Made by a program: the position numbers and the translations under genes. Positions 6,791 through 19,213 of a DNA stretch of 64,000 nt are shown here, piece by piece. The stretch is from the sequence record PQ488502.1; one strand, given 5' to 3'. The notes under the pieces were generated by a model, which saw only the letters and a program-made list of their open reading frames with translations, was not told the origin of the DNA and did no database searches. This DNA comes from Escherichia phage BUCT632. Every line of letters starts with the position of its first letter. Position 1 is the stretch's first letter.

Positions 6791-7108
6791 ATGACTTTTC
6801 ATATTTTGATTGATGATGTGCGTAATCTTCACGGAATGGACATTATCATTCGAACCCCAGAAGCCGCTGTAGAGTTTCTGAATAAAACTGATACCACAGG
6901 CCATTTCGTTTATATGGATAATGACTTGGCTGTAGATGGTATGGAAGGTTATCAAATTCTTCGTTTACTCTTAGAATTTGGGCAGAGACCAAAGAAAGTG
7001 GTACTAGTAACCTCGAACCCAGTAGCTAAGCAAAATATGCGTAATGATTTGCTTGACTTAGGGTATAAAGAAAATCCCAATCGTGTTGAATATGATTGGC
7101 AGGAGTAA
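6791..7108 (+). CDS. Hypothetical protein
   Basis: 105-aa ORF downstream of promoter. Confidence 0.45.
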   Translation: MTFHILIDDVRNLHGMDIIIRTPEAAVEFLNKTDTTGHFVYMDNDLAVDGMEGYQILRLLLEFGQRPKKVVLVTSNPVAKQNMRNDLLDLGYKENPNRVEYDWQE

Positions 7109-7113
7109 AAAGA

Positions 7114-7563
7114 ATGAAGGCAGCTTTGCTTTTAGTAGCTGCCCTTACCTTCAGCTTTAGTAGTCAGGCATCGCACGATGCAAAAGAAATAGATTGCATT
7201 GCTAAAAATATCTATTTCGAGAGTCGTGGTGAGGGCATAAAGGGAATGACGGCGATTGCACATGTTACTAAAAACCGTGTAAACTCCGGTAAATTCCCAG
7301 ATTCCTACTGTAAAGTAGTATATCAGTCTAACCAGTTCTCTTGGGTATCTAAGAGACCAAAAGTTGATAAAACCGATGAGGCTTGGCAAACAGCCAAGAA
7401 TTTAGCTAGAGTGATATACTACGTTGATTTACCACAAGATCCTACACATGGAGCACTATACTTCCATAGTGGTAAAGATAAACCTTATTGGACAAAGAAG
7501 TTTAAGAAAACAACTAAGATTAAGGGACATACGTTTTATAAACCTGTTGTCACTAAAACTTAA
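7114..7563 (+). CDS. SleB-like cell wall hydrolase domain protein with signal peptide
   Basis: N-terminal signal-like MKAALLLVAALTFSFSSQA; SleB-like stretch NIYFESRGEG...AIAHVTKNRV...YQSNQFSWV; ATG at 7114 with AGGAG RBS (track start 7096 is TTG). Confidence 0.6.
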   Translation: MKAALLLVAALTFSFSSQASHDAKEIDCIAKNIYFESRGEGIKGMTAIAHVTKNRVNSGKFPDSYCKVVYQSNQFSWVSKRPKVDKTDEAWQTAKNLARVIYYVDLPQDPTHGALYFHSGKDKPYWTKKFKKTTKIKGHTFYKPVVTKT

Positions 7564-7571
7564 AAATTTAC

Positions 7572-7600
7572 TTGCTTAAATACTTAAATTTCTGTATAAT
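7572..7600 (+). promoter_or_regulatory. PN25-type sigma70 promoter
   Basis: TTGCTT 7572-7577, 17-nt spacer, TATAAT 7595-7600. Confidence 0.6.
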
Positions 7601-7801
7601 ACTTCCATAAACTAATGAGAGGAAGCGAAATATGAAATCAGTTGTAATTATTGGTGTTAACACTCGCGGTATTCGTACTACGAAAACTGTTAAAACATCT
7701 AACGTGGCTGAAATTACTACTAACCCTAAAAAGTTTGATTTCGCCAAAGTCTCGGCAGTTATGACAGAACAATCTTTTAACCAAGCGTTAGGAATGAAAT
7801 A

Positions 7802-8245
7802 ATGGAAGAGAATATTTTAGATGTTTTGCGTAGAGCTTTGCAGGATTCTAAGTTTAATGGTTCTGATAAAGAAGTCGCTAAAAGCTACCAGACCATAATC
7901 GGGGATCTTCAGCGTATTGATAAAGATTTCATCACTTCTGAACAATTTGTGTCTTATCTCAAAGCTCAACTAAAAAGCATTAACCAGATGAAAGCTAAAC
8001 TTCATGGTCGAGATCTTGATAGCTATAGCTTACAGTCTGCTCAGTATGAATACATTCTAAATAAGTGGTTGCAGGAGTATCTGCCTCCTCAGTTATCTGA
8101 TACTGAGATTCGTAAATACTTTGCAGAATTAGTTAAGCTAAACCCTGGAATTACAAAGGGTATGCTGATGAAAGCGATTAAGGAAGAATTTCCTGGGCGT
8201 TATGATGGTGGTACTGCTGCTCAGATTGCTGGCGAATTTAATTAA
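7802..8245 (+). CDS. Hypothetical protein, possibly GatB/YqeY-domain like
   Basis: 147-aa ORF; weak resemblance to YqeY-type helical domain; assignment tentative. Confidence 0.4.
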   Translation: MEENILDVLRRALQDSKFNGSDKEVAKSYQTIIGDLQRIDKDFITSEQFVSYLKAQLKSINQMKAKLHGRDLDSYSLQSAQYEYILNKWLQEYLPPQLSDTEIRKYFAELVKLNPGITKGMLMKAIKEEFPGRYDGGTAAQIAGEFN

Positions 8246-8253
8246 AAATTCAT

Positions 8254-8282
8254 TTGCTAAATGCTTATAAATTCTGTATAAT
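8254..8282 (+). promoter_or_regulatory. PN25-type sigma70 promoter driving an ORF-free transcript
   Basis: TTGCTA 8254-8259, 17-nt spacer, TATAAT 8277-8282; no ORF for about 790 nt downstream. Confidence 0.6.
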
Positions 8283-8289
8283 ATATTCA

Positions 8290-9079
8290 TAAATTAGGGA
8301 ACAGCGAGCCGATTACGCTGAGTGCAGAATCCCAACCGGAGCGCATTGAATAGAGTCGGTGGGTTAGTTGTAAAACTAGTACACAGGGGGCGGCAATCCC
8401 GGTTAGTGGCTAGAACGTGTAAAATGAGGCGTCTGAAACCTCTCCCCTAAACTCTTCTCTAATTTATAAATAGTGGGGTGTGGAAATCACTTATGTAGTA
8501 ACACTGCCGTCCTAGTATAATTGGTATTATCAAGCCGTAACTGGTGGAAGATGTAGGTTCGAATCCTACGGTCGGTAAGAACTGGATAACTGATGCTTTT
8601 AACGTAAAAGCTTCCGAGGTTAGTTGCGCACTGCCTAAACCACGCGGTAGTTGGTTCCAGACTAACCAACCAGTCTGCTGAATAGTTTTATTACGATTTA
8701 ACTATGTCCAGGCTAAAGAAGAACTTTAGAAGGTATTCTAGGATAGTGAAGTTCTTTCTCCATATCGGAGTAGTTTTTCAAGCTATCCACAAAGTGGGAA
8801 ATGCTGACATGAGAGATGTCACTAATGGTGCACAATAGCACAGGTAATTCGCGATAACTCCTGTTGAGTAGCAGCAAAAGGCGGGAAGTCATGACCCCAA
8901 GCCTAACCGAGTCCTCAATATACCGCAGGATATAACCACTAAGTCACCCTGACTTAAACTGGAAAATAATAGACGTTACCGTATTTTGTCTTGAAATACT
9001 TAATGAGTGAGACTTATGACTCTCCCGGTATCGTCTGTATTTTTAAGAGTTTTTACGAGAGTTCTTAAAAATACTTAAA
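8290..9079 (+). ncRNA. Promoter-driven ORF-free region; candidate structured non-coding RNA(s) or degenerate tRNA
   Basis: no plus-strand ORF of 60 aa or more; T-arm-like hairpin GTAGG-TTCGAAT-CCTAC at 8553-8569 with acceptor-like pairing 8506-8512/8570-8576 but no anticodon arm; several local hairpins. Confidence 0.3.
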
Positions 9080-9154
9080 CGGGGTGTAGTCTAAGGGAGA
9101 GGCAGGAGTCTTCTAAATTCCTTTATGCAGGTTCGAATCCTGTCACCTCGGCCA
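9080..9154 (+). tRNA. tRNA-Arg (anticodon UCU)
   Basis: acceptor CGGGGTG/CACCTCG, D-stem GTCT/AGGC, anticodon arm GGAGT-CTTCTAA-ATTCC, T-arm GCAGG-TTCGAAT-CCTGT, encoded CCA. Confidence 0.7.
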
Positions 9155-9188
9155 ATTTTATTAACTGTAACTAAAACAAAGGAAACAT

Positions 9189-10136
9189 ATGTTTAATACT
9201 AAAAATATGAAAGAACTGACTTCTGAGCAGAAAGTAATTCGTACTATTAAACGTTGGGGTATTGGTGCTGTAGTTGGTTTAGCAGGCTTGATTCTAGCTT
9301 TTAATTCATATACTATTGTTTCTGATGGTACGGTTAAAACCCAAACATTCCTGGGTAAAGTAGATCCTAATCCAGTATTGCCTGGTTTCCATCTTGTAAA
9401 TCCGTTTGCATCTTTCGATACTTTTAGTACAAAAGATATTGCTGTAAAATTAGATAAACTTCAGGTTCCTAGCCAGGATAAGTTTAAATCCACTGTTGAC
9501 CTGACTGTTATGTTGCAGTTTGATGGTTCTAAGGCACCGATTAACCGTATTAACGCAGGTACTCAGGATCAGGCACTAGACAAGTATGTAACTGAAAAAT
9601 TATTGTCTACTATTCGTGAGTTTGGTAAGTCTGTACCTAAAGCACAAGATTTGTTTGATGCTAAAATTCAGGCTCAATTACAAACTGCAATTCAACAGGA
9701 AGTTGAAGAGTATGCACGCCCATATGGTTACACAGTTAAGCAGGTGTTCCTTCAGGATATTACTCTGCCACCAGTAATCATGGAGCAGGTACAGAATACC
9801 AAAGTTCGTGAAGAGCAAGTTAATGCTGCGAAAGCTGAACTGGCTCGTGTTGAACAGGAAGCACAGCAGAAGGTTAAACAAGCAGAAGCAGATCGTGAAG
9901 CTCGTAATAACCAAGCTATTGCTAATGAACGTGACGCAGATGCTAAACTGTATGCAGCTAAGAAAGAAGCTGAAGCTAACGCCGCACTGCAACGTACCAT
10001 TACTCCTGAGATGATTCGTTGGAAACAACTGGAAGTTGAAATGATTCGTGCTCAGAAATATCAAGGTGGTGTACCGCAGACTGTGGTTGGCACTGGCTAT
10101 GATGGCCAAATGATTATGGATATGCGTAATAAATAA
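9189..10136 (+). CDS. SPFH/band-7 (prohibitin/HflK-like) membrane protein
   Basis: N-terminal TM segment, SPFH-like core and C-terminal Ala/Glu/Gln-rich coiled coil. Confidence 0.7.
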   Translation: MFNTKNMKELTSEQKVIRTIKRWGIGAVVGLAGLILAFNSYTIVSDGTVKTQTFLGKVDPNPVLPGFHLVNPFASFDTFSTKDIAVKLDKLQVPSQDKFKSTVDLTVMLQFDGSKAPINRINAGTQDQALDKYVTEKLLSTIREFGKSVPKAQDLFDAKIQAQLQTAIQQEVEEYARPYGYTVKQVFLQDITLPPVIMEQVQNTKVREEQVNAAKAELARVEQEAQQKVKQAEADREARNNQAIANERDADAKLYAAKKEAEANAALQRTITPEMIRWKQLEVEMIRAQKYQGGVPQTVVGTGYDGQMIMDMRNK

Positions 10137-10160
10137 TACCCGCATGTAACATCTGAAGTA

Positions 10161-10195
10161 AGCCCTGCGTTCCCTGGAGAGCGCAGGGTTTTTCT
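10161..10195 (+). terminator. Rho-independent terminator
   Basis: GCCCTGCG...CGCAGGGT hairpin followed by TTTTTCTG. Confidence 0.7.
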
Positions 10196-10213
10196 GTATT
10201 TAAGATAAAAGAA

Positions 10214-10248
10214 AAGCCCCTAAGTCTTTCGACTAGGGGCTTTATTGT
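10214..10248. terminator. Bidirectional hairpin terminator between convergent genes
   Basis: AGCCCCTAAGTC / GACTAGGGGCT stem flanked by A-run upstream and T-run downstream. Confidence 0.6.
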
Positions 10249-10460
10249 TTGGTTCTTTAGAACCATATACTCTTATTACAGCAACCACCCATACGGGAGG
10301 CCAATCTTGACTGAAAATCTACTCTAGGGGGCAGGATAAGAGTAGGCTTAAAGGCAAACGGATTGAACGCCGGTATTTGCGTAAACATTGCTGGAGAGCA
10401 ACAACGTGCTACAGGCATTGGGCAGCACGAAACAGATTTTCTGCAACACATAATTCCTCC

Positions 10461-10877
10461 TTAGGAGTTATTACCACCATTTTGAGCTTTTGCAACTTGG
10501 CTTTGGCAGAAGCTATTAAACTTACCCATAAGTGATACAAGCTGTTTCCCATCCTCTGTCTTTGCGAAGTCTTCGAAAAGGGCTAGTACTGCCTGTCCTT
10601 CCGCAGAAACCTGCGATTGTTGGGTTTGTTGCTGAACTTGCTGCTGCGGCACCTGTTGCTGCATTTGTTGAGGCATTTGCGACTGCCCGCTCATTTGCTG
10701 CATCATTTGTATAGGACTCACACTTCCAGGGTTTTGCTGGAGTTGTTGCTGCATCTGTTGCGCTTCTGCTAAACGCTGTTGCAATTGTTGTAAGTAGGGG
10801 TTATCCAGACCCGGAATGGGCTGCTGGGAGCCCATACTTTGATTAAGTCCGTTATTTACAAAACCATATTTACTCAT
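10461..10877 (-). CDS. Hypothetical glutamine-rich low-complexity protein
   Basis: 138-aa minus-strand ORF, Q-rich repeats (QQMQQQLQQ, QQQVQQQTQQ); one of few minus-strand genes in the early region. Confidence 0.5.
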   Translation of the reverse strand: MSKYGFVNNGLNQSMGSQQPIPGLDNPYLQQLQQRLAEAQQMQQQLQQNPGSVSPIQMMQQMSGQSQMPQQMQQQVPQQQVQQQTQQSQVSAEGQAVLALFEDFAKTEDGKQLVSLMGKFNSFCQSQVAKAQNGGNNS

Positions 10878-10898
10878 AATGGGCTCCTCCCCTTAATA

Positions 10899-11888
10899 TT
10901 AAGCCGGCAGTTTAGCCTGCAGACCAGCCAGAGTCTGAGTGATAGCACCAAGACTTAAAGCGATTTGATTAATTACCTGACCGTTAGCACCGCTACCTGC
11001 AGCGATTGCTTCACGTAGGCGACATGCATCTAACTCATCCTGGATACGCGCAGTAGTTACACCAGCGATCGCAGTCTGAAGTTCACAGCAACATTCAGCG
11101 ATCTGACGTTCCAGAGAGTTCTGGTTAGCACACATCTGAGCCTGAACAGCGGCAAACTGGTTATTAGTTTGTAAAGTCTGCTGGAAAGCGATCTGTGCAG
11201 AATCAAACTTATCTTGTGCACGAGCTATCTGGTTAGCTGCGAAAGATTGATCAATCTGGCGAGAAAGATCGAACTGACCCTGAATAACGTTGCGAGTTTC
11301 CTGGCAGATCTGATTAGATAGATTAGCACCTGTACCATAGATCGTAGTTAGTACAGACTGAGTATCACGGCTCTGGTTTTGGGATGTCTGGCTAAAACCA
11401 TTGTTAACTGCGCTTAAAACAGCTCCAGTACCCTGGTTAGCTTCTGTACGAGTAGTGTTAATAGCTGCTAGAATACTAGCGGTATCTTGGTTCTGAAGTA
11501 CTGCATCAACTGCGGTACCTTCACCAACTACACCACGTCCACCGAATCCACCGAAACCACCGAATCCGCCTGTTAATAGAGCACCGATTAGGATAGCTCC
11601 GAATAGTCCCATACCTTCACCACCGAAAGCACCTGCGTTTGCTGGGTAACCACCCAGTAGGCCAGGGAAGCCACTAGTGAATACGTTTACTGGTTCTTGC
11701 ATTTTATGTTTTCCATATTTATGACAATGTTCATCATCATCTTCTTCATCATCTTCATCGTGTTCGCGATGTTTCTCTTCGTAGGCTCTGACCTTCTCCC
11801 ACTTTTTCTTATCTGATTCCTCGTGACGGTGCAGTTCTGCTGCAACGCTAGCGACGGTCTCAGGACTCTTAGCTACTTCTTCTGTCAT
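10899..11888 (-). CDS. Hypothetical protein with acidic His/Asp/Glu-rich segment and Gly-rich (GGFGGFGGFGG) segment
   Basis: minus-strand ORF; start taken at ATG 11888 preceded by AGGAGGTG RBS (track start 11948 is further upstream). Confidence 0.5.
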   Translation of the reverse strand: MTEEVAKSPETVASVAAELHRHEESDKKKWEKVRAYEEKHREHDEDDEEDDDEHCHKYGKHKMQEPVNVFTSGFPGLLGGYPANAGAFGGEGMGLFGAILIGALLTGGFGGFGGFGGRGVVGEGTAVDAVLQNQDTASILAAINTTRTEANQGTGAVLSAVNNGFSQTSQNQSRDTQSVLTTIYGTGANLSNQICQETRNVIQGQFDLSRQIDQSFAANQIARAQDKFDSAQIAFQQTLQTNNQFAAVQAQMCANQNSLERQIAECCCELQTAIAGVTTARIQDELDACRLREAIAAGSGANGQVINQIALSLGAITQTLAGLQAKLPA

Positions 11889-12095
11889 TTTTTGACACCT
11901 CCTAGTATATAGAAAATGTGTGTCTCTTTGATCACTCATCCATAACATATACTTTACACTACCCCAGCGAAAATGTCAAGGGGTCTTTAAAAATTGCCCC
12001 CGGATTTTTAGTGGGGTCACAAATTTTGGTCCTCACCACTTATCTGCTACCCTTAAGTGCCCTATGATTTTCCTCTAAAAAGTTAAAAAATTTGA

Positions 12096-12124
12096 TTGCT
12101 TGAATGCTAAATTCTCTGTATAAT
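12096..12124 (+). promoter_or_regulatory. PN25-type sigma70 promoter
   Basis: TTGCTT 12096-12101, 17-nt spacer, TATAAT 12119-12124, leader ATAAATTTGAGAGAGG. Confidence 0.65.
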
Positions 12125-12154
12125 ATATCTATAAATTTGAGAGAGGAACCAAAT

Positions 12155-12673
12155 ATGAATGTTGATGAGCTAACACAGCACCTCTTATCTAGAGGATTTG
12201 ATACAGATAAATATCATTGCTGGTTAAGTCCGGAAGGGTGGCTAACAGTCCCGTTGTATGATTTCTCTGGAATGTTGAGGGGCTATCAAACTTATAATCC
12301 TTCTGCTCCAAAAGGTCATGGTAAGTGCCCATTTGAAGCTAAATACTTTACTTATTCTACTACACAGTGTGTATGGGGACTAGAAACTCTCAATGGAGAT
12401 GAAAAAGTAGTATTGATCGCTGAATCTGTATTTAAGGCAGTTGCGTTACATAATGCGGGTTATCCAGCCCTGGCAATGTTGGGTTCTTCTCCAGGAAAAG
12501 CGTTATTAAAGCAACTGAAATTACTACCTTTTAAATTGGTAGCTGTTGGAGACAATGATCCCGATGGTGAAAAATTTGCTAGACAATTAAATGGATTTGT
12601 TTCTCCTGTAGATGTAGATGAGATGTCTACCGAAAACTTGAAAAATTTTCTTGCTATGAAGCTAAATTTCTAA
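12155..12673 (+). CDS. Hypothetical protein (possible Toprim-like fold)
   Basis: ORF from ATG 12155 after promoter; segment VVLIAESVF...VAVGDNDPDGEKFA loosely Toprim-like. Confidence 0.45.
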   Translation: MNVDELTQHLLSRGFDTDKYHCWLSPEGWLTVPLYDFSGMLRGYQTYNPSAPKGHGKCPFEAKYFTYSTTQCVWGLETLNGDEKVVLIAESVFKAVALHNAGYPALAMLGSSPGKALLKQLKLLPFKLVAVGDNDPDGEKFARQLNGFVSPVDVDEMSTENLKNFLAMKLNF

Positions 12674-12694
12674 TATAATATATCTTATAAATTC

Positions 12695-12783
12695 GGAAGA
12701 ATAGCATAACGGTATTGCAGCAGATTGCTAATCTGTCGGTTTGAAATATAGCCTTGTGGGTTCGATTCCCACTTCTTCCGCCA
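12695..12783 (+). tRNA. tRNA-Ser (anticodon GCU), type II
   Basis: acceptor GGAAGAA/TTCTTCC, anticodon loop TTGCTAA, long variable arm, T-arm GTGGG-TTCGATT-CCCAC, encoded CCA. Confidence 0.75.
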
Positions 12784-12789
12784 GATTTT

Positions 12790-12867
12790 GGTTCTCAAGC
12801 TCATATGGTATGAGCACCCGGCTCATAACCGGAAGGTACGTAGGTTCGAATCCTCGGGGAGCCACCA
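12790..12867 (+). tRNA. tRNA with CAU anticodon (Met or Ile2)
   Basis: acceptor GGTTCTC/GGGAGCC with G-U pairs, D-arm GCTC-ATATGGTAT-GAGC, anticodon loop CTCATAA, T-loop TTCGAAT, CCA. Confidence 0.65.
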
Positions 12868-12885
12868 ATTAAATAGAGGTCACAA

Positions 12886-13074
12886 ATGGATCTATATATA
12901 GTTTATGTTGTGTTTATTCAAGATAGAGAATACCCGGGTGAATATAAAAAAGGATATAGGTTAGCCAGAGCTACCTCTGAAGCCCAAGCTATGGATAAAG
13001 TGGCGGATTATATGATTACAGTAGAAAACGTACACTATATCGACTACCTTGAAGCCTCAAAAGTAATTGACTAA
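12886..13074 (+). CDS. Hypothetical small protein
   Basis: 62-aa ORF between tRNA genes. Confidence 0.35.
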   Translation: MDLYIVYVVFIQDREYPGEYKKGYRLARATSEAQAMDKVADYMITVENVHYIDYLEASKVID

Positions 13075-13081
13075 ACTACAC

Positions 13082-13158
13082 GGGGGTGTAATCGAATTGG
13101 CATAGGTACTGGACTTAAAATTCAGGTTTTGTGGGTTCGAATCCCACCACCCCTACCA
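13082..13158 (+). tRNA. tRNA with UAA anticodon (Leu by anticodon) and short variable arm
   Basis: acceptor GGGGGTG/CACCCCT, anticodon arm CTGGA-CTTAAAA-TTCAG, T-arm GTGGG-TTCGAAT-CCCAC, A73, CCA. Confidence 0.6.
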
Positions 13159-13333
13159 AATTAAGGAAATAAGATGTATAGACATCCACCTCCGCCAACA
13201 CGTCGTTCTAGGGAAGTCGTCCTTATGGAATTGACTAAAAACTTCAAGGCAACTCTTGAAGATAGAGATCTGGGCACGGATGAAGACATTGATTTTATTT
13301 GTAGACTATTAAAGATGAAACTGGAGAAACAAC

Positions 13334-13540
13334 ATGGCTAATCCTGAAATTACCGCACAACGTTTCATGCTTAAAGGCATGATTGCTGAGGCAGGTATAA
13401 CTCAAGAGGTTGCAGATTTTCATAAGCAATTTCTTGACATTATAACTCTAGCTAAAGAGACTGGAGAAAAAGAACATGGAGCGGCAATTATGGCTATATC
13501 TCTTATTAGTCTAGACTTGGCTGAAGAATCTGGAGTTTAG
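13334..13540 (+). CDS. Hypothetical small protein
   Basis: 68-aa ORF. Confidence 0.4.
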   Translation: MANPEITAQRFMLKGMIAEAGITQEVADFHKQFLDIITLAKETGEKEHGAAIMAISLISLDLAEESGV

Positions 13541-13570
13541 CTCCTCCAAACAGAATTTTTAAAAATGTAC

Positions 13571-13600
13571 TTGCCTTTTGCTTTAAATTTCTGATATAAT
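13571..13600 (+). promoter_or_regulatory. PN25-type sigma70 promoter
   Basis: TTGCCT 13571-13576, 18-nt spacer, TATAAT 13595-13600. Confidence 0.55.
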
Positions 13601-13630
13601 AGTTATATAAATTGATGAAGGAGTTAACGA

Positions 13631-13906
13631 ATGCAAAATCGTGTTATAGCTGCTGGTATTGAAAGTGCAATCTGTAAATCCTGGGAAGGCTGGGAAGGTG
13701 AGATTGAATGGCTTTATTTCTACGATGTAGAACTTCTGCCGGAAATTAAAGCTAAATGTATTGAAGCTGGCATGGCTCCAGATGCAAAAGCTGATATTGA
13801 TATTTCAATGTCTGAACTTAAAGGTCGTGTAATCACTGTTAGTGATGAGGGCGAAGAAGTTTTTGAACTTCCATTCTCCTTAACTGTCACTCCTAAGTTC
13901 GACTAA
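13631..13906 (+). CDS. Hypothetical acidic protein
   Basis: 91-aa ORF downstream of promoter with GAAGGAG RBS. Confidence 0.45.
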   Translation: MQNRVIAAGIESAICKSWEGWEGEIEWLYFYDVELLPEIKAKCIEAGMAPDAKADIDISMSELKGRVITVSDEGEEVFELPFSLTVTPKFD

Positions 13907-13942
13907 CTAATACAGCATTGGGCAAGTTCTTTAAAATTTGAC

Positions 13943-13971
13943 TTGCTCAGTGCCTTAAAACTTGATATAAT
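13943..13971 (+). promoter_or_regulatory. PN25-type sigma70 promoter ahead of hairpin and tRNA-Tyr
   Basis: TTGCTC 13943-13948, 17-nt spacer, TATAAT 13966-13971. Confidence 0.55.
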
Positions 13972-13990
13972 AGTTATCTAATTTGGAAAC

Positions 13991-14095
13991 ATATCTGAAT
14001 GAGAAGTAATTAGGCGAGTTGCTTTTAGGGGTAAAGTCAGGAAATCCTGAAATATTCCACCTTGAGTTTAACCGACTTACTTTTCATTCAAATAT
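13991..14095 (+). other. Long hairpin (about 19-bp closing stem) abutting the tRNA-Tyr 5' end; candidate RNase III processing site or small structured RNA
   Basis: 5' arm ATATCTGAATGAGAAGTAA (13991-14009) pairs with 3' arm TTACTTTTCATTCAAATAT (14077-14095), one mismatch and one G-U. Confidence 0.45.
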
Positions 14096-14176
14096 GGGGG
14101 ATTGGCTCAGCGGCGACGGCGCCTGGCTGTAGACCGGGTATATCACGCGGAGGTTCGAGTCCTCCATCCCCCACCA
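14096..14176 (+). tRNA. tRNA-Tyr (anticodon GUA), type II
   Basis: acceptor GGGGGAT/ATCCCCC, anticodon arm CCTGG-CTGTAGA-CCGGG, long variable arm, T-arm GGAGG-TTCGAGT-CCTCC, CCA. Confidence 0.7.
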
Positions 14177-14194
14177 AATTACTAAGGAAGTAAT

Positions 14195-14740
14195 ATGCAC
14201 AATAAGTTAATAAATGAGCTTCAAAAAAGACAGATAATAACAAAAACTAAGGAGTTTGATATAACTCCAGATTTAATAGTTGAATGCTCGAAAGTTTACT
14301 TAGAGTTAAGTAATACAAAGGCTAAGAAAGTCTCCTTAGGAGATCTTAGATATAATGTTAAACTATTGTGCTTATCCTTAATTAAATTTAAGCAAAAAAA
14401 TAAACTTCCCATAAAAGAAGGCTTCATATATTTTATAGCAAATAAGGCCTGGCCCAATTATTTTAAGATTGGTATGTCAGCTAACCCAAAGAAACGCTTA
14501 GCAAACTATCAAACATATAGCCCTTTTAGGGACTATACAATGCTACACTGGTCTTTCTGGTTTGATAGAAAGGAAGGCAAAAAGTTTGTCCATAGCCTCT
14601 ATCAAGATAGGGATCATGAATGGGTTAAGTTGCCTCGAAGAAAACTAAATAAAATATTTGAACAAATTAATAAACTTTCTGGCTTGGAACATTTAGTACA
14701 GAAAGTTAATAAAGAAATAGTTAATGCACCTATCGTCTAA
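14195..14740 (+). CDS. T5orf172-domain protein (GIY-YIG-related, MUG113-like)
   Basis: motif GFIYFIANKAWPNYFKIGMSANPKKRLANYQTYSP matches the T5orf172-type core; 3' end overlaps tRNA-Glu by 15 nt. Confidence 0.55.
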   Translation: MHNKLINELQKRQIITKTKEFDITPDLIVECSKVYLELSNTKAKKVSLGDLRYNVKLLCLSLIKFKQKNKLPIKEGFIYFIANKAWPNYFKIGMSANPKKRLANYQTYSPFRDYTMLHWSFWFDRKEGKKFVHSLYQDRDHEWVKLPRRKLNKIFEQINKLSGLEHLVQKVNKEIVNAPIV

Positions 14741-14800
14741 TGGTTAGGACATCAGGATTTCAATCTGAGAATCGGAGTTCAATTCTCCGTGGGTGTACCA
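14726..14800 (+). tRNA. tRNA-Glu (anticodon UUC)
   Basis: acceptor GCACCTA/TGGGTGT with G-U pairs, D-stem GTCT/GGAC, anticodon arm TCAGG-ATTTCAA-TCTGA, T-arm CGGAG-TTCAATT-CTCCG, CCA. Confidence 0.65.
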
Positions 14801-14808
14801 ATTTCTGC

Positions 14809-14885
14809 ATTCCTAGAGTGTTACTGGACAGCATGTCGGTCTCCAAAACCGTACGGTCTAGGTTCGAGTCCTAGTAGGTTTGCCA
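14809..14885 (+). tRNA. tRNA-Trp (anticodon CCA), with U-U mismatches in acceptor stem
   Basis: T-arm CTAGG-TTCGAGT-CCTAG, anticodon loop CTCCAAA on CGGT/ACCG stem, D-stem GTGT/GCAT, CCA; acceptor ATTCCTA/TAGGTTT has two U-U. Confidence 0.5.
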
Positions 14886-14891
14886 AAATTT

Positions 14892-14966
14892 GCACCTTTA
14901 GCTGAGATGGATTAGCGCTTGCCTGAAGAGCTTGAGAGGTTCGTTCGATACGAACAGGGTGCACCA
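14892..14966 (+). tRNA. tRNA-Phe (anticodon GAA), with U-U mismatches in anticodon stem
   Basis: acceptor GCACCTT/AGGGTGC, D-stem GCTG/TAGC, anticodon loop CTGAAGA, T-arm GTTCG-TTCGATA-CGAAC, CCA. Confidence 0.5.
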
Positions 14967-14983
14967 AATTGAAGGAGCTGCTG

Positions 14984-15256
14984 ATGCATCCTGAAAACTT
15001 CTTTATTTACTGCGCGGATAAGTCGCTGAAACGTAGAATTAACAAAGTCTATCATTATCGTGCTAGTCAACAGCCTTATGTATACGCTTTTGACGGTGAT
15101 CACATTCCACTAGAACAATTATCTTGTGATTACATGATATTGAAGAACTTTGACGAGACGAAGATCTCAAGCGTTCATAATCGACAGAATCCATTAACGT
15201 GGAAATATAAGAAGAAAAAGAAAGGCATCAAATTCTTAAAAAATGTAGTTGCTTAG
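14984..15256 (+). CDS. Hypothetical protein
   Basis: ORF from ATG 14984; lysine-rich C-terminus; low confidence. Confidence 0.3.
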   Translation: MHPENFFIYCADKSLKRRINKVYHYRASQQPYVYAFDGDHIPLEQLSCDYMILKNFDETKISSVHNRQNPLTWKYKKKKKGIKFLKNVVA

Positions 15257-15277
15257 TTTCCAAAAGTTCTGTATAAT
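15249..15277 (+). promoter_or_regulatory. PN25-type sigma70 promoter
   Basis: TTGCTT 15249-15254, 17-nt spacer, TATAAT 15272-15277. Confidence 0.6.
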
Positions 15278-15325
15278 AATTACATAAATTGAACTGGAGA
15301 AGCAACATGACAGAACAAGATAAAT

Positions 15326-15401
15326 CGACCGTTGGCTGAATGGCTTAGGCGAAGGATTGCAAATCCTTTTTATGTGAGTTCAAATCTCATGCGGTCGTCC
15401 A
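15326..15401 (+). tRNA. tRNA-Cys (anticodon GCA)
   Basis: acceptor CGACCGT/GCGGTCG, anticodon arm AAGGA-TTGCAAA-TCCTT, T-arm GTGAG-TTCAAAT-CTCAT, CCA. Confidence 0.75.
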
Positions 15402-15402
15402 A

Positions 15403-15547
15403 TTTGCTGAAAGAATTGTTAAATCAATTCAGGCACGCGTAGGAACACTGTCTCCGTAATTGAAAGATGGGGCACGGTTTGGAGAGGTATGCCGCTACAC
15501 GCTACGGTGCTAACTCCGTCTAGGTGAAAATCCTAGTCAGCAATGTA
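15403..15547 (+). other. Structured ORF-free element closed by a 7-bp long-range stem with T-arm-like hairpin; candidate ncRNA or degenerate tRNA
   Basis: TTGCTGA (15403-15409) pairs with TCAGCAA near 15540; hairpin CTAGG-TGAAAAT-CCTAG just before the 3' arm. Confidence 0.3.
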
Positions 15548-15553
15548 AATTTA

Positions 15554-15635
15554 GGGTCGTTAGCCAAGCGGTTTGGCGGCGGATTGTTAATCCGTGTCGA
15601 AAGACAACGTAGGTTCGAATCCTACACGGCCCGCC
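15554..15635 (+). tRNA. tRNA with GUU anticodon (Asn) and unusually long variable arm
   Basis: acceptor GGGTCGT/ACGGCCC, anticodon arm GCGGA-TTGTTAA-TCCGT, 13-nt variable arm GTC-GAAA-GAC, T-arm GTAGG-TTCGAAT-CCTAC, G73, CCA. Confidence 0.6.
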
Positions 15636-15738
15636 AAATTCTGTGTAGAGTTAAGTAAACCGGTAGCCAATCAGCTATCATTGCTGACATCGAATTCAGC
15701 CACAGATACCATTTTCATTAATAACTGAGGAAACAAGC

Positions 15739-15924
15739 ATGTCCAAGAATGTAATTGCACAGTTAGAAGTTCATCGTGATAGCACTATCAACAATATTGA
15801 AGTTGAGAAGAAATACATCGAAGAACTTAAACATGATATACTAGTAAGTCTTAATCGTCTTAATGTACGAAAAGAGTTTCTTAAAGAACTTAATGCAGCT
15901 ATTGAAAAACTCAAAGCTGAGTAA
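15739..15924 (+). CDS. Hypothetical small coiled-coil protein
   Basis: 61-aa ORF with GAGGAAA RBS. Confidence 0.4.
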   Translation: MSKNVIAQLEVHRDSTINNIEVEKKYIEELKHDILVSLNRLNVRKEFLKELNAAIEKLKAE

Positions 15925-15933
15925 ATGAATTAT

Positions 15934-16010
15934 GCGACCGGGGCTGGCTTGGTAATGGTACTCCCCTGTCACGGGAGGGAATGTGGGTTCAAATCCCATC
16001 GGTCGCGCCA
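15934..16010 (+). tRNA. tRNA-Asp (anticodon GUC)
   Basis: acceptor GCGACCG/CGGTCGC, anticodon arm CTCCC-CTGTCAC-GGGAG, T-arm GTGGG-TTCAAAT-CCCAT, CCA. Confidence 0.8.
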
Positions 16011-16036
16011 AACTAAACTAGCACGAGAAAAATGCT

Positions 16037-16384
16037 ATGATTAATGCTAAAGAAGAATTGTTACTTGCCCTAAAGAATACTAATTCTGAAGTTAAGTGTA
16101 TTAAGATAGAATTCGGTTATTATGGGGACAAAGAAGTTTGGGTATTACCCGTAGGTTATACAGAAAAAGATATTGAAGATTTTCTAAATAATCTAGACTT
16201 TAAATATGATTCTGGTTTCGGTGGACAATTGCTTTATGGTAACGTATGGTTTACTGATGGAACTTGGTTAGAACGTGGTGAATATGATGGTTCTGAATGG
16301 TGGGAGTATAAGACTACACCAGCAATCCCTGAGGAATGCCGAACAATTAATGGTGAGGTAGATAATACTTTACGGTTAAACTAA
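16037..16384 (+). CDS. Hypothetical protein
   Basis: 115-aa ORF between tRNA genes. Confidence 0.45.
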   Translation: MINAKEELLLALKNTNSEVKCIKIEFGYYGDKEVWVLPVGYTEKDIEDFLNNLDFKYDSGFGGQLLYGNVWFTDGTWLERGEYDGSEWWEYKTTPAIPEECRTINGEVDNTLRLN

Positions 16385-16506
16385 TAAAATTTCAGTGCAG
16401 AACACGGAGCTAGCAATTCGGAAGTGCTGACTCATGATAAGCTGCCTATGTACTTGCGAAGCGGTCGTGTCCAAGACTCGGACTCTTGCACTGAAAACAA
16501 TCAAAC

Positions 16507-16627
16507 ATTCTAGCGTGGTTGATGGGGAAACCAGCTTGGCGAGGGCAGAAGCTCGTTCGATTCGAGTGAAAGAATGGTTCTCGTAAGTCCGCACAAGTGA
16601 TAACAGGTTCGAGTCCTGTCTAGAATG
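16507..16627 (+). tRNA. Oversized tRNA-like gene (121 nt) with about 55-nt insertion in the anticodon loop; no encoded CCA
   Basis: acceptor ATTCTAG/CTAGAAT, D-arm TGGT-TGATGGGGAA-ACCA, anticodon-stem-like pairing GCTTG(16534-16538)/CAAGT(16594-16598) enclosing 55 nt, T-arm ACAGG-TTCGAGT-CCTGT. Confidence 0.4.
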
Positions 16628-16635
16628 ACACTATA

Positions 16636-16763
16636 AAGTTTACTTATTATGTAGGTTCCGGTAGATCGGCGGGTCTATTCTGGCATTTAAGAGGGGTCTC
16701 GCAAACTTCTTTGTCAGCCGTGGGGTTGGTAGCCTCCAGGCGGCCTACACAATAAGTAAATTT
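16636..16763 (+). other. Long hairpin (about 20-bp closing stem enclosing about 88 nt); candidate small structured RNA or RNase III site
   Basis: AAGTTTACTTATTATGTAGG (16636-16655) pairs with CCTACACAATAAGTAAATTT (16744-16763). Confidence 0.45.
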
Positions 16764-16776
16764 ATTAAAAATTCAT

Positions 16777-16805
16777 TTGCTATTCTGCTTAATTCTCTGT
16801 ATAAT
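16777..16805 (+). promoter_or_regulatory. PN25-type sigma70 promoter
   Basis: TTGCTA 16777-16782, 17-nt spacer, TATAAT 16800-16805. Confidence 0.6.
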
Positions 16806-17000
16806 ATATTTTATAAAGTGAAGAGAAGGAAAGCAAAATGAAACACAAGATAGCTCAAGTTTTTATGGCATTATGGTGTATGCCAATAGCTGTAACAGCT
16901 TTTAATCTAGATACTTTTACTATAGAAGAAAAATGTATCGGATTAGTTAGCGGCTTTAGTATGCTTGGCTTATCTTTGTTGTGGTTGAAGAAATAATATT

Positions 17001-17078
17001 CTCCGTGTAGCTCAGTTTGGCCAGAGCGTTTCGTTTGGGGCGATAGGGTCGGGGGTTCAAATCCTCCCACGGAGACCA
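17001..17078 (+). tRNA. tRNA-Pro (anticodon UGG)
   Basis: acceptor CTCCGTG/CACGGAG, D-stem GCTC/GAGC, anticodon loop TTTGGGG, T-arm GGGGG-TTCAAAT-CCTCC, CCA. Confidence 0.65.
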
Positions 17079-17084
17079 AACAAT

Positions 17085-17162
17085 TGCGGGTTAGATCTCT
17101 GGTAGAGATCGCTAGTCTCATAAGCTAGAAAGAGGTAGGTTCGATTCCTGCACCCGCTTCCA
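17085..17162 (+). tRNA. tRNA with CAU anticodon (Met or Ile2)
   Basis: D-arm GATC-TCTGGTAGA-GATC, anticodon arm CTAGT-CTCATAA-GCTAG, T-arm GTAGG-TTCGATT-CCTGC, CCA. Confidence 0.65.
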
Positions 17163-17351
17163 TTTTAATAGGGGATTTCGAAATGAAAGTATTTCGATTA
17201 GTAGTAAGTGACAAACGTTTAGGTAAGAATACCTCAAAATCATTACTTGCTCATTATGGTAAAAATTGGGATGAAGTAATGGTAGAGTTTAATACTAATC
17301 ACCCTTACTTGAAAGTTCACTCTATTAAAGAAGTATACAATGGTTACTAAT

Positions 17352-17430
17352 AGATCGCTAGCTCAATAGGTTTAGTAGCATCCGACTTTTAATCGGAAGG
17401 TTCTGGGTTCGAGTCCCAGGCGATCTACCA
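17352..17430 (+). tRNA. tRNA-Lys (anticodon UUU)
   Basis: acceptor AGATCGC/GCGATCT, anticodon arm TCCGA-CTTTTAA-TCGGA, T-arm CTGGG-TTCGAGT-CCCAG, CCA. Confidence 0.8.
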
Positions 17431-17448
17431 ATTTCAAGAAAAACGCAG

Positions 17449-17477
17449 TTGCTTGATGCTTAATTTCTTGTTATAAT
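17449..17477 (+). promoter_or_regulatory. PN25-type sigma70 promoter ahead of structured RNA and tRNA-Ala
   Basis: TTGCTT 17449-17454, 17-nt spacer, TATAAT 17472-17477. Confidence 0.6.
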
Positions 17478-17516
17478 ATTTATATAAATTGATGAGGAGA
17501 AATCCTCATCATAGTT

Positions 17517-17701
17517 CACTAAGGTATTAGCTCGACCTAGGACTGGCTGCCAAAAAGCACGATCCCCATGATTCGGGAGAAGTTCTAGATTGGTCCACTA
17601 GATTCAGCGGCAACTGAATAGTGTATTGGGTTTGCGAGATGACGCAGTTCCTTCCGCTCGAAGCGAAGGTGCTGTAGTTACGCCGAGCTAATAGCCTTAG
17701 T
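17517..17701 (+). other. Structured ORF-free element closed by about 17-bp long-range stem (one bulge); candidate ncRNA or RNase III processing domain
   Basis: ACTAAGGTATTAGCTCG (17517-17534) pairs with CGAGCTAATAGCCTTAGT (17684-17701); internal hairpins. Confidence 0.4.
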
Positions 17702-17715
17702 AAACTAAAGAATTT

Positions 17716-17794
17716 GGGGAATGGGTCTGCATGGAGTGGACACCTCGCTTGCACCGAGGACATCAGAACGGTTCGATTCCGTTATTCTCCACCA
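17716..17794 (+). tRNA. tRNA-Ala (anticodon UGC)
   Basis: acceptor GGGGAAT/ATTCTCC, anticodon arm CCTCG-CTTGCAC-CGAGG, T-arm AACGG-TTCGATT-CCGTT, CCA. Confidence 0.75.
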
Positions 17795-17799
17795 AATAC

Positions 17800-17876
17800 G
17801 CGTGATTGATGGAATTGGCATACATACCGTCCTTAGAAGTCGGGTTTTGAGGGTTCGAATCCCTTGTCACGCACCA
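17800..17876 (+). tRNA. tRNA with UAG anticodon (Leu by anticodon) and short variable arm
   Basis: acceptor GCGTGAT/GTCACGC, anticodon arm CCGTC-CTTAGAA-GTCGG, T-arm GAGGG-TTCGAAT-CCCTT, A73, CCA. Confidence 0.55.
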
Positions 17877-17987
17877 AATTTGATGGTCAGAGTAAATTAA
17901 ACCTACTATCTCGGTTGAGCTGTTTTAATGGGTTCGAATCCCAGCGAGGCGTAACTGCCTGGTGTGATAGAGGCATCATCTTATTAT

Positions 17988-18078
17988 TGGAAGAGCAAAT
18001 CGAATTGGCGACGAAAACCGCTTGGAAAGTGGCTGACTGGTAAAACGGCTTGAGAGTTCAAATCTCTCCTCTTCCGCC
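17988..18078 (+). tRNA. tRNA-Ser (anticodon GGA), type II
   Basis: acceptor GGAAGAG/CTCTTCC, D-stem TCG/CGA, anticodon loop TTGGAAA, long variable arm, T-arm GAGAG-TTCAAAT-CTCTC, CCA. Confidence 0.6.
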
Positions 18079-18098
18079 AAACACTTGAGGTAATAATA

Positions 18099-18446: not shown

Positions 18447-18459
18447 TATAATAAATACT

Positions 18460-18549
18460 AGAAGATAGGACGTAGTGGTATGTAACTGGTCTTGAAAACC
18501 AGCCCGCTGTAGTGATACGGTGATGGTTCGACTCCATTATCTTCTGCCA
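18460..18549 (+). tRNA. tRNA-Ser (anticodon UGA), type II
   Basis: acceptor AGAAGAT/ATCTTCT, anticodon arm CTGGT-CTTGAAA-ACCAG, long variable arm, T-arm GATGG-TTCGACT-CCATT, CCA. Confidence 0.75.
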
Positions 18550-18569
18550 ATTAACTATAAGGAAATCTT

Positions 18570-18743: not shown

Positions 18744-18750
18744 AAATTCT

Positions 18751-19188: not shown

Positions 19189-19213
19189 AATTAACTTAAA
19201 TAGGAAATAAAAT

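What the first reader, a model, noticed from the sequence alone, without database searches (positions are those of the whole stretch)
8290..9079. Strong promoter driving about 790 nt of ORF-free transcript upstream of tRNA-Arg
A consensus PN25-type promoter (8254-8282) is followed by 790 nt with no plus-strand ORF of 60 aa or more. The region contains a perfect T-arm-like hairpin (8553-8569) with acceptor-like flanking pairing but no anticodon arm, and several local hairpins (for example 8654-8678). It may encode one or more non-coding RNAs or a degenerate tRNA.
Basis: seen in the sequence. Interest (0 to 1): 0.55.

Follow-up and report, generated by a model that had tools for sequence, protein, structure and literature searches.

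The report
T5 phage RNAX: large structured non-coding RNA
The ORF-free stretch is real and is the "RNAX" stable RNA that GenBank already annotates in T5-like phages with function unknown; comparison with relatives shows it is a multi-domain structured RNA with an embedded tRNA look-alike, the same kind of thing as the large phage RNAs GOLLD and ROOL that also sit beside tRNA gene clusters.

Summary
A near-consensus sigma-70 promoter (8254-8282) is followed by about 790 nt with no conserved ORF on either strand, ending at tRNA-Arg(UCU). The window is a Tequintavirus. GenBank records for T5 and Salmonella phage 5 already annotate this interval as rnaX, "stable RNA with unknown functions", so the locus is not new.

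What I found in no Rfam family or searchable paper is its architecture:
- a 5' domain closed by a helix that pairs the transcript's 5' end, with a replaceable interior that T5 lacks;
- a tRNA-like element (8506-8578; Rfam tRNA 35.5 bits) with covarying acceptor and T stems but never a normal anticodon loop;
- a variable middle;
- a conserved 3' domain of about 290 nt (8791-9079).

In the 3' domain, invariant loops alternate with helices that keep pairing through compensatory changes. In the 8791-8942 part, 22 of 31 pairs show changes on both sides and 96% of cells pair, against 28-48% when partners are slid.

The locus is shared by Tequintavirus, Epseptimavirus, Sugarlandvirus and a Pectobacterium phage. 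It is most likely an accessory, RNase P-matured non-coding RNA. Its function is unknown.

The parts
8254..8282 (+). Sigma-70 early promoter (T5 'P16-17', PN25-type): TTGCTA, 17-nt spacer, TATAAT
   Evidence: 10 of 12 consensus positions. GenBank promoter feature. Conserved in all relatives.
8289..9079 (+). RNAX transcript body. The 5' end is inferred at A8289 (the GenBank feature starts at about 8295). The 3' end is the RNase P site at the 5' end of tRNA-Arg.
   Evidence: misc_RNA rnaX 'stable RNA with unknown functions' in AJ604531 and AY734508. No conserved ORF.
8289..8301 (+). 5' strand of helix P0 (AUAAAUUAGGGAA). It pairs with 8455-8467 and sequesters the transcript's 5' end.
   Evidence: Minimum-free-energy fold. 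Duplex found in 13 of 14 lineages at -11 to -18 kcal/mol, against about -8 +/- 1.8 for shuffled sequence, with changed sequences in L064 and DU_PP_V.
8302..8454 (+). Interior of the 5' domain. It is replaceable: 8303-8445 is absent from T5, SP3 and SA001, and other lineages carry different inserts or an HNH endonuclease gene here. It contains hairpin CAGCG/CGCUG (8302-8320) and the conserved motif UGAAUAGAGUCGGUGGGUU (8347-8365).
8455..8467 (+). 3' strand of helix P0 (UUCUCUAAUUUAU)
8468..8505 (+). Conserved leader in front of the tRNA-like element (UAGUGGGGUGUGGAAAUCACUUAUGUAGUAACACU)
   Evidence: retained in 17-18 of 20 divergent loci.
8506..8578 (+). tRNA-like element. It has an acceptor stem (U5-U68 mismatch, G1-U72), D arm and T arm. 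The 'anticodon' arm is a short stem with a 6-nt loop GUAACU. No CCA is encoded.
   Evidence: Rfam RF00005 35.5 bits. Covariation in the T stem and acceptor stem and non-canonical anticodon arms in all lineages.
8579..8611 (+). Conserved trailer (AAGAACUGGAUAACUG) plus a hairpin at 8595-8611 whose stem sequence differs between lineages while staying complementary (GCUUUUA/UAAAAGC, GCUUAU/AUAAGC, GCUUC/GAAGC, GCGUA/UACGC)
8612..8790 (+). Variable middle or linker.
   Evidence: only 5-8 of 20 divergent loci align..
8791..8942 (+). 3' domain part a, a multi-helix junction closed by P1.
- P1: GUGG 8794-8797 with CCAC 8936-8939.
- P2: 8805-8810 with 8816-8821.
- P3a: 8829-8832 with 8870-8873.
- P3b: 8840-8844 with 8860-8864.
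- P4: 8879-8882 with 8901-8904, and 8884-8886 with 8895-8897.
- P5: 8911-8915 with 8927-8931.
8887..8894 (+). Invariant 8-nt P4 loop AGUCAUGA, which contains the self-complementary UCAUGA
   Evidence: Identical in every aligned lineage, including Sugarlandvirus and Pectobacterium phage DU_PP_V.
8942..9079 (+). 3' domain part b.
- P6: hairpin AGUCA-CCC-UGACU (8942-8954).
- Invariant linker UAAACUGGAA (8955-8969).
- P7: 8971-8975 with 9032-9036, enclosing two hairpins and the motif CUUAAU (8999-9004).
- P9: terminal 17-bp A/U-rich hairpin (9037-9074), ending 5 nt before tRNA-Arg.
9080..9154 (+). tRNA-Arg(UCU), co-transcribed. Its RNase P site defines the 3' end of RNAX.
9189..10136 (+). SPFH/Band-7 membrane protein gene in the same transcription unit. 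The first plus-strand terminator (ter1) is at 10160-10191.

Best explanation
The interval is the gene for RNAX, an accessory non-coding RNA of about 0.79 kb in T5-like phages.

How it is made: host RNA polymerase starts at the strong early promoter P16-17. It transcribes RNAX, tRNA-Arg(UCU) and the SPFH gene as one unit, up to terminator ter1.

How it is matured (inferred): host RNase P cuts at the 5' end of tRNA-Arg, which creates the RNAX 3' end. It probably also cuts at the embedded tRNA-like element.

Architecture:
- a 5' domain whose closing helix hides the 5' end and whose interior is dispensable;
- a tRNA-like element that keeps the acceptor, T and D arms but has no decoding anticodon loop;
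- a variable linker;
- a conserved 3' domain of about 290 nt, made of a P1-closed junction, a three-way junction and a terminal hairpin.

The invariant single-stranded loops of the 3' domain (AGUCAUGA, the CCY hairpin followed by UAAACUGGAAGAUA, and CUUAAU) are the likely contact surfaces for a partner or for self-association.

I think it acts in trans as a stable RNA or RNA-protein particle during infection. That makes it a functional analogue of the large phage RNAs GOLLD and ROOL that sit beside tRNA islands, and a plausible part of the tRNA-centred contest with host defences.

Shown here: it is non-coding, the promoter is present, it has a conserved and covarying structure, it is conserved across genera, and it is dispensable in the laboratory. 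Inferred: the processing sites, its stability, action in trans, and its partner.
For: Annotation and transcription unit:
- Same locus annotated as stable RNA RNAX.
- Promoter present and no terminator before 10160.
- No conserved ORF on either strand.

Distribution: more than 500 phage records carry the region. These include Epseptimavirus, Sugarlandvirus and Pectobacterium phage DU_PP_V of another subfamily.

Conservation: the 8792-8851 part of the 3' domain is 93-95% identical among divergent lineages, at least as conserved as the flanking protein genes.

Structure of part a (8791-8942):
- MAFFT-only alignment: 95.6% of cells paired and 7 pairs changed on both sides, against 37-52% and 0 pairs when partners are slid.
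- Covariance-model alignment of 24 sequences: 95.8% paired and 22 of 31 pairs changed on both sides, against 28-48% slid; 0 of 500 shuffles reach the observed values.

Structure of part b (8940-9078): 93.6% paired against 32-51% slid, with 7 compensated pairs. The model also recovers the Tequintavirus and Pectobacterium versions.

Strand: many G-U pairs would be A-C mismatches on the minus strand, so the plus strand is the structured one.

Other elements:
- tRNA-like element: Rfam match and covarying T and acceptor stems.
- P0 helix retained in nearly all lineages, and as a simple hairpin in T5 where the interior is deleted.

Dispensability: the T5 st0 deletion end-point lies just upstream of the promoter, so this viable mutant lacks RNAX.

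GOLLD and ROOL precedent: large phage RNAs near tRNA islands. GOLLD has a conserved 3' region, a variable 5' region, and tRNAs in its linker (PMC12286853).
Against: - No expression, end-mapping or stability data were available here. 'Stable RNA' rests only on the GenBank annotation.
- Folding energies are unremarkable: z = +0.67 for the 5' domain and -1.12 for the whole RNA.
- The covariation comes from a handful of lineages that exchange modules by recombination, so independent events are few. The covariance-model alignments lean towards the model structure.
- P1, P6, P9 and all the loops are nearly invariant, which gives no covariation evidence and could also reflect DNA-level constraints.
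- The RNA is dispensable for growth in the laboratory, and T5 itself lacks the interior of the 5' domain.
- No similarity to GOLLD, ROOL or any other Rfam family, so the analogy rests on context, not homology.
Confidence: 0.6

Rival explanations
1. It is a cis-acting leader or processing platform. On this view the structured RNA exists to direct maturation, stability or expression of whatever lies immediately downstream (tRNA-Arg, or an ORF). The terminal hairpin P9 would act as an RNase III or RNase P guide or a translational operator, and the released fragment would have no function of its own.
For: - RNAX, tRNA-Arg and the SPFH gene form one transcription unit with no internal terminator.
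- P9 always abuts the next gene. That gene is tRNA-Arg 3-5 nt away in Tequintavirus and DU_PP_V, the ribosome-binding site of a 108-aa ORF in Sugarlandvirus, or a 169-aa ORF in S147, TrudiRoth and bobsandoy.
- The P6 22-mer sits just upstream of start codons in unrelated phage contigs.
Against: - About 290 nt of conserved multi-junction structure, plus a further 500 nt, is far more than known processing signals need.
- The domain is kept unchanged while the downstream gene differs between lineages.
- The other T5 tRNAs are processed without such a leader.
- GenBank annotates it as a stable RNA species in its own right.
Confidence: 0.2
2. It is a DNA-level element. On this view the invariant inverted repeats (GTCATGAC, AGTCA-CCY-TGACT, the P9 palindrome) are binding sites for a phage or host DNA-binding protein, or homing-endonuclease targets, and transcription through them is incidental.
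For: - The most conserved motifs are inverted repeats that never vary.
- Homing endonuclease genes insert in and next to the region.
Against: - Helices between the motifs change sequence on both strands while keeping complementarity, and they use G-U pairs that work only in plus-strand RNA.
- The half-site spacing differs between the two AGTCA/TGACT repeats (0 nt in one, 3 nt in the other).
- Homing endonucleases target conserved sequence; they do not explain why it is conserved.
Confidence: 0.07
3. It is a neutral remnant: a spacer made of decayed tRNA genes and scars of mobile-element insertion, with no function.
For: - A degenerate tRNA is present.
- The interior of the 5' domain and the middle region are highly variable and partly deleted in T5.
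- The region is dispensable in T5 st0.
Against: - The 3' domain and the tRNA-like element are as conserved as the neighbouring genes across three or more genera.
- Exact motifs persist in Sugarlandvirus and DU_PP_V, where the surrounding sequence no longer aligns.
- Compensatory changes are seen.
Confidence: 0.03
4. It encodes one or more small proteins.
For: Automatic annotation has called ORFs of 42-60 aa here, for example in Stokescottia and GreteKellenberger.
Against: - Every ORF of 42 aa or more is interrupted by frameshifts or stops within Tequintavirus itself, and all are lost in Epseptimavirus.
- One-nucleotide indels occur in the conserved domain.
Confidence: 0.02

Closest known systems
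RNAX (gene rnaX) as annotated in GenBank AJ604531 (Salmonella phage 5 tRNA region) and AY734508 (T5), submitted by the Ksenzenko laboratory
   Same: It is the same locus. It runs from promoter P16-17 to the base before tRNA-Arg (785 nt in phage 5, 99.6% identical to the window; 719 nt in T5) and is described as 'stable RNA with unknown functions'.
   Different: The annotation gives no structure, domains, conservation or function. The internal tRNA-like element and the conserved 3' domain are not marked. I found no open paper describing it.
GOLLD RNA (Rfam family; large phage/prophage RNA)
   Same: - Around 800 nt.
- Encoded by phages next to tRNA islands.
- Conserved 3' region and less conserved 5' region.
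- tRNAs sometimes lie in the linker.
- Function unknown.
Source: PMC12286853.
   Different: No match to the Rfam model even at E up to 10. The hosts and phage family are different. Oligomer formation is untested for RNAX.
ROOL RNA (Rfam family)
   Same: A large, ornate, phage-encoded RNA near tRNA genes. It is abundant but non-essential, and conserved kissing loops hold its assemblies together.
   Different: No Rfam match. The secondary structure is unrelated. The self-complementary loop of RNAX is only a hint of self-association.
The other T5 'tRNA-like RNAs' and 'stable RNAs' (RNA1-3; RNA I, III, IV, 2H), and the species 1 and 2 stable RNAs of the phage T4 tRNA cluster
   Same: They are non-coding RNAs of unknown function embedded in a phage tRNA operon and released by the tRNA-processing machinery (for T5; the T4 case is from my own knowledge).
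   Different: Those RNAs are 70-170 nt. RNAX is about 790 nt, has a large non-tRNA domain, and is not similar to them.
tRNA-like domains that lack an anticodon (tmRNA tRNA-like domain, bacterial YrlA RNA, mascRNA)
   Same: An acceptor/T-arm minihelix plus a D-arm mimic, sufficient in those systems for RNase P and the CCA-adding enzyme, with the anticodon arm replaced by another stem (my own knowledge).
   Different: ARAGORN finds no tmRNA. Rfam finds no tmRNA or YrlA match. No tag reading frame is present and no Ro-binding stem was identified.

Membership tests
RNAX of T5-like phages (GenBank annotation) | Lies between promoter P16-17 and tRNA-Arg(UCU) at the start of the tRNA region, with sequence identity to the annotated feature | tested here: met
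   99.6% identity over the whole interval to AJ604531, with the rnaX and promoter features under the match. T5 record AY734508 likewise.
RNAX of T5-like phages (GenBank annotation) | Accumulates as a stable RNA in infected cells | not testable with these tools
   Only the depositor's note says so. No RNA-seq data or paper was found.
tRNA (Rfam RF00005) | Score at or above the family's gathering threshold | tested here: met
   35.5 bits against a threshold of 29 at 8506-8577. Homologues score 29-36 bits.
tRNA (Rfam RF00005) | Canonical anticodon arm: 5-bp stem and 7-nt loop with U33 and a purine at position 37 | tested here: not met
   The 18-nt arm is left unaligned by the model. Across lineages the loop is 6, 9 or 4 nt, or the arm is extended to 31 nt. 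ARAGORN misses it in the window.
tRNA (Rfam RF00005) | Acceptor and T stems maintained by compensatory change | tested here: met
   T stem: GUAGG/CCUAC, GCAGG/CCUGC and GUGGG/CCCAC. Acceptor pair 4-69: G-C in most lineages, C-G in DU_PP_V. Acceptor pair 5-68: U-U in most, A-U in T5, U-A in L103.
GOLLD RNA | Match to the Rfam covariance model (conserved 3' domain) | tested here: not met
   No hit at E up to 10 on 8240-9160 or at E up to 1 on 7000-22000.
GOLLD RNA | Large phage-encoded RNA beside a tRNA island, with a conserved 3' part, a variable 5' part and a tRNA in the linker | tested here: met
   Family description from PMC12286853.
ROOL RNA | Match to the Rfam covariance model | tested here: not met
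   No hit.
GOLLD/ROOL-type RNA-only assemblies | Forms homo-oligomers through conserved inter-molecular loop contacts | not testable with these tools
   The only hint is the invariant self-complementary loop AGUCAUGA.
Protein-coding gene | An open reading frame conserved among relatives | tested here: not met
tmRNA | tRNA-like domain plus a tag reading frame detectable by ARAGORN or Rfam | tested here: not met

The most novel reading that the evidence does not exclude
RNAX is the founding member of a previously undescribed class of large, ornate phage RNAs, functionally akin to GOLLD and ROOL but unrelated in sequence. Its conserved 3' domain would self-associate through the invariant self-complementary loop, or capture a host or phage factor. 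Its tRNA look-alike would recruit, or act as a decoy for, tRNA-processing or tRNA-cleaving enzymes. Together these would give T5-like phages an RNA-based accessory weapon in the tRNA-centred contest with bacterial defences.
Probability: 0.3. Interest if true: 0.8.

Novelty: new member of a known kind. Interest (0 to 1): 0.6.

Why it matters
T5 is a classical, genetically tractable model phage, and its tRNA region has recently been shown to counter tRNA-cleaving defences such as PARIS and retron Eco7 (PMC11464382; PMC10644984). An 0.8-kb structured RNA sits at the head of that region, is conserved in more than 500 phage genomes and has no known function.

The functions of the comparable large phage RNAs GOLLD and ROOL are also unknown, and those RNAs come mostly from hosts that are harder to study. 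RNAX offers an E. coli/Salmonella system in which to ask what such RNAs do. A natural deletion mutant (T5 st0) and natural domain variants already exist.

If the RNA turns out to be only a processing leader, the result still corrects annotation. Many genome records call spurious ORFs or 'tRNA-Sec/Ser/OTHER' genes in this region.

Tried and rejected
- Rfam 15 scans found only tRNA matches and chance-level hits: E up to 1 on 15 kb, E up to 10 on the locus, and gathering thresholds on nine homologous loci.
- Thermodynamic stability does not mark the RNA out: z = +0.67 and -1.12.
- Self-similarity within the window shows only T-arm matches to the real tRNAs. The 22-mer and the P4 loop motif are single-copy in the window.
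- Small-ORF hypothesis rejected.
- A long-range pairing between UUCCAG (8655-8660) and the invariant CUGGAA linker is not conserved across lineages.
- The P6 22-mer as a repeated phage promoter is rejected. It is single-copy in each unrelated contig of 6-14 kb.
- Host mimicry at the sequence level is rejected. There is no blastn match in 5,426 complete E. coli genomes, and the 22-mer has only two hits in 185,579 species genomes.
- IMG/VR scans returned essentially the same isolate genomes as GenBank and added little diversity.
- Literature searches for RNAX, T5 stable RNAs, a T5 transcriptome, and Demerecviridae structured RNAs found nothing on this RNA.
- Model R1 does not detect the Pectobacterium version with default filters. 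With filters off it gives only 7.5 bits, so that homology for part a rests on motifs and synteny.

Full report
**What the window is.** The region is 99-99.6% identical to Tequintavirus genomes such as Salmonella phages VSe12, phage 5 and Spc35 and Escherichia phage OSYSP. ARAGORN finds 22 tRNA genes downstream, so this is the head of the T5-type tRNA region.

**The observation.**
- The promoter at 8254-8282 is TTGCTA-17 nt-TATAAT, 10 of 12 consensus positions. GenBank annotates it as promoter P16-17.
- By analogy with T5 PN25 (my own knowledge), transcription should start at A8289. The GenBank rnaX feature begins about 6 nt later.
- Between the promoter and tRNA-Arg(UCU) at 9080-9154, no plus-strand ORF exceeds 45 aa.
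- None of the five ORFs of 42-60 aa on either strand survives in relatives. T5, L010, L014 and the Epseptimaviruses carry frameshifts or stops in every one.
- The first plus-strand terminator is ter1 at 10160-10191. The promoter therefore drives one unit: the ORF-free RNA, then tRNA-Arg, then an SPFH/Band-7 gene.

**It is already annotated.** GenBank AJ604531 (phage 5 tRNA region) and AY734508 (T5) mark exactly this interval as misc_RNA rnaX, 'RNAX, stable RNA with unknown functions'. The same record lists further 'stable' and 'tRNA-like' RNAs of unknown function in the tRNA region.
- The T5 record also places one end of the st0 deletion just upstream of the promoter. The viable laboratory mutant T5 st0 therefore lacks RNAX.
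- I found no open paper on RNAX.
- No Rfam family matches it apart from tRNA.

**The tRNA-like element.** Rfam's tRNA model matches 8506-8577 at 35.5 bits against a threshold of 29, but it skips the 18-nt anticodon-arm region.
- Across lineages the T stem covaries: GUAGG/CCUAC, GCAGG/CCUGC, GUGGG/CCCAC.
- Acceptor pair 4-69 switches from G-C to C-G in the Pectobacterium phage. Pair 5-68 is U-U in most lineages, A-U in T5 and U-A in one variant.
- The 'anticodon' arm is always a stem-loop, but with a 6-, 9- or 4-nt loop, or as a 31-nt extended arm in Sugarlandvirus.
- It is therefore a maintained tRNA-shaped module that cannot decode. This explains why different pipelines call it tRNA-OTHER, tRNA-Ser(ACT) or tRNA-Sec(TCA).

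**Conservation pattern.** Against 20 divergent loci, four blocks are retained:
- the promoter and the first ~30 nt;
- 8462-8611, which covers the leader, the tRNA-like element and the trailer;
- 8792-8971;
- 9032-9079.

Identity in 8792-8851 is 93-95%, at least as high as in the flanking genes. The interior of the 5' domain (8303-8445) is missing from T5, SP3 and SA001. Other lineages replace it with other sequence or with an HNH endonuclease gene. The interval 8612-8790 is poorly conserved.

**The 5' domain.** The first 13 nt of the transcript (8289-8301) pair with 8455-8467.
- An equivalent duplex exists in 13 of 14 lineages examined, at -11 to -18 kcal/mol against about -8 +/- 1.8 for shuffled sequence. 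Both strands are altered in L064 and DU_PP_V.
- In T5 the helix remains as a simple hairpin after loss of the interior.
- A helix that buries the 5' end fits a stable RNA (inference).

**The 3' domain, part a (8791-8942).** An alignment of 17 lineages shows invariant motifs separated by helices whose sequences change while staying complementary. The invariant motifs include GGAGUCAUGACC and AACCAC. RNAalifold and per-lineage folds agree on a junction closed by P1 (GUGG/CCAC), with hairpins P2, P3, P4 and P5.
- MAFFT-only alignment of 14 sequences: 95.6% of cells pair and 7 pairs change on both sides. With partners slid by 1-3 columns, 37-52% pair and no pair changes on both sides.
- A covariance model built from that alignment finds full-length matches in Sugarlandvirus (24-28 bits) and in three divergent Epseptimaviruses.
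- On the resulting 24-sequence alignment, 22 of 31 pairs have changes on both sides and 95.8% of cells pair, against 28-48% slid. None of 500 shuffles reaches the observed values.
- The alignment is fitted to the model, so these figures lean towards the structure. The MAFFT-only result is the independent check.
- Frequent G-U pairs identify the plus strand as the folded one.
- The P4 outer helix takes several different sequences: AGGCU/AGCCU, AGACU/AGUCU, UAAAC/GUUUA, GUGAC/GUCAC and CCUAGAC/GUCUAGG. Its 8-nt loop AGUCAUGA never changes.
- In the Pectobacterium phage, P1 appears as ACGG/CCGU (a weak hit).

**The 3' domain, part b (8942-9079).** It consists of:
- an invariant hairpin, AGUCA-CCY-UGACU;
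- an invariant linker, UAAACUGGAAGAUA;
- a helix P7 that differs between lineages (AGACG/CGUCU, CUGACGG/CCGUCGG, CUGACAG/CUGUCGG) and encloses two hairpins and the motif CUUAAU;
- a nearly invariant 17-bp terminal hairpin that abuts the next gene.

A second model recovers all lineage types, including Tequintavirus (about 80 bits) and the Pectobacterium phage (49 bits). On that alignment 93.6% of cells pair, against 32-51% slid, and 7 pairs are compensated. Support is weaker than for part a because two of the helices never vary.

**Distribution.**
- The locus layout is: promoter, 5' domain, tRNA-like element, 3' domain, then tRNA-Arg or an inserted ORF.
- It is present in Tequintavirus, Epseptimavirus, Sugarlandvirus (Klebsiella) and Hongcheonvirus (Pectobacterium).
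- It is absent from 5,426 complete E. coli genomes.

**Interpretation.** The data exclude a coding region and a neutral spacer. They make a purely DNA-level element unlikely.
- Best reading: an accessory structured RNA matured by the host tRNA-processing machinery, with the 3' domain as its functional core.
- Closest known kind: the large phage RNAs GOLLD and ROOL. They sit beside tRNA islands, are non-essential and have unknown function. GOLLD also has a conserved 3' part, a variable 5' part and tRNAs in its linker (PMC12286853).
- RNAX is not a member of either family, because it fails the Rfam models.
- Main rival: a cis-acting leader for the downstream gene. The data do not exclude this.
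- Function, partners, processing sites and stability remain inferred.

Noticed in passing
window 8942-8963; loci L071:1469, L081, L090:867, L099, L089/L110, L100:5721, L070/L080, L106/L111, L084 (two copies), L115:1114: The invariant 22-mer AGTCACCYTGACTWWAACTGGA of the RNAX 3' domain also occurs, exactly or nearly so, in unrelated-looking phage and metagenome contigs and in a Sulfurimonas single-cell contig. It is single-copy in each. It usually lies in an intergenic spot just upstream of a ribosome-binding site and ATG, or after a terminator. None of the other RNAX motifs is nearby. Exact 22-mers are not expected by chance, so this may be a portable RNA or DNA signal shared among phages.
   Followed up: partly
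L090 (Ga0315885_101303, 1565 nt) and L084 (reverse complement 1540-1700): Two metagenome contigs carry both the P6-type 22-mer and a P4-loop-like motif (GGGAAGTCATGAGCC; AGAGTCATGCT), in a different order and spacing from RNAX. L090 is GC-rich and looks non-coding throughout. They may be distant relatives of the 3' domain or carry a shared pair of modules.
   Followed up: partly
window 8303-8445; L066/L067 (HNH gene in its place); L030:1529-2026; L030:2614-3123: The RNAX locus is a hot spot for mobile inserts. T5, SP3 and SA001 lack a 143-nt module. HNH endonuclease genes replace the interior of the 5' domain in several Epseptimaviruses. A 169-aa ORF with no Pfam match is inserted between the terminal hairpin and tRNA-Arg in S147, TrudiRoth, bobsandoy and 1-23.
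   Followed up: partly
L005 (T5) 817-904; L082: T5 and one metagenome relative carry an 87-nt insertion between P1 and P6. It duplicates the P6 hairpin and linker, giving two copies of AGTCACCTTGAC..TAAACTGGAA.
   Followed up: no
window 12790-12864, 19588-19661, 18751-18882: Rfam finds tRNA-type matches that ARAGORN misses (40.3, 30.9 and 25 bits). In the phage 5 record the first two correspond to annotated tRNA-Ile2 and tRNA-Gly. The third falls among the annotated 'RNA I / RNAIII / RNA1' stable RNAs of unknown function. The tRNA region holds at least seven further uncharacterised RNAs (RNA I, III, IV, 2H, RNA1-3).
   Followed up: no
window 7802-8245: The gene immediately upstream of the RNAX promoter encodes a 147-aa protein with a weak YqeY/GatB-type match (25.4 bits, just under Pfam's cutoff of 27). 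That domain binds tRNA in other proteins. Many genome records mis-name this gene 'recombination-related exonuclease' or 'tRNA amidotransferase'. Its adjacency to a tRNA-like RNA may be meaningful.
   Followed up: partly
window 8283-8301 and about 2.8 kb upstream in related genomes (for example L001:222-248): The -10 region and the first ~20 transcribed bases (CTGTATAATA.ATTCATAAATT) recur at another early promoter in each genome. Part of the conservation of the 5' strand of helix P0 therefore reflects promoter architecture rather than RNA structure.
   Followed up: no
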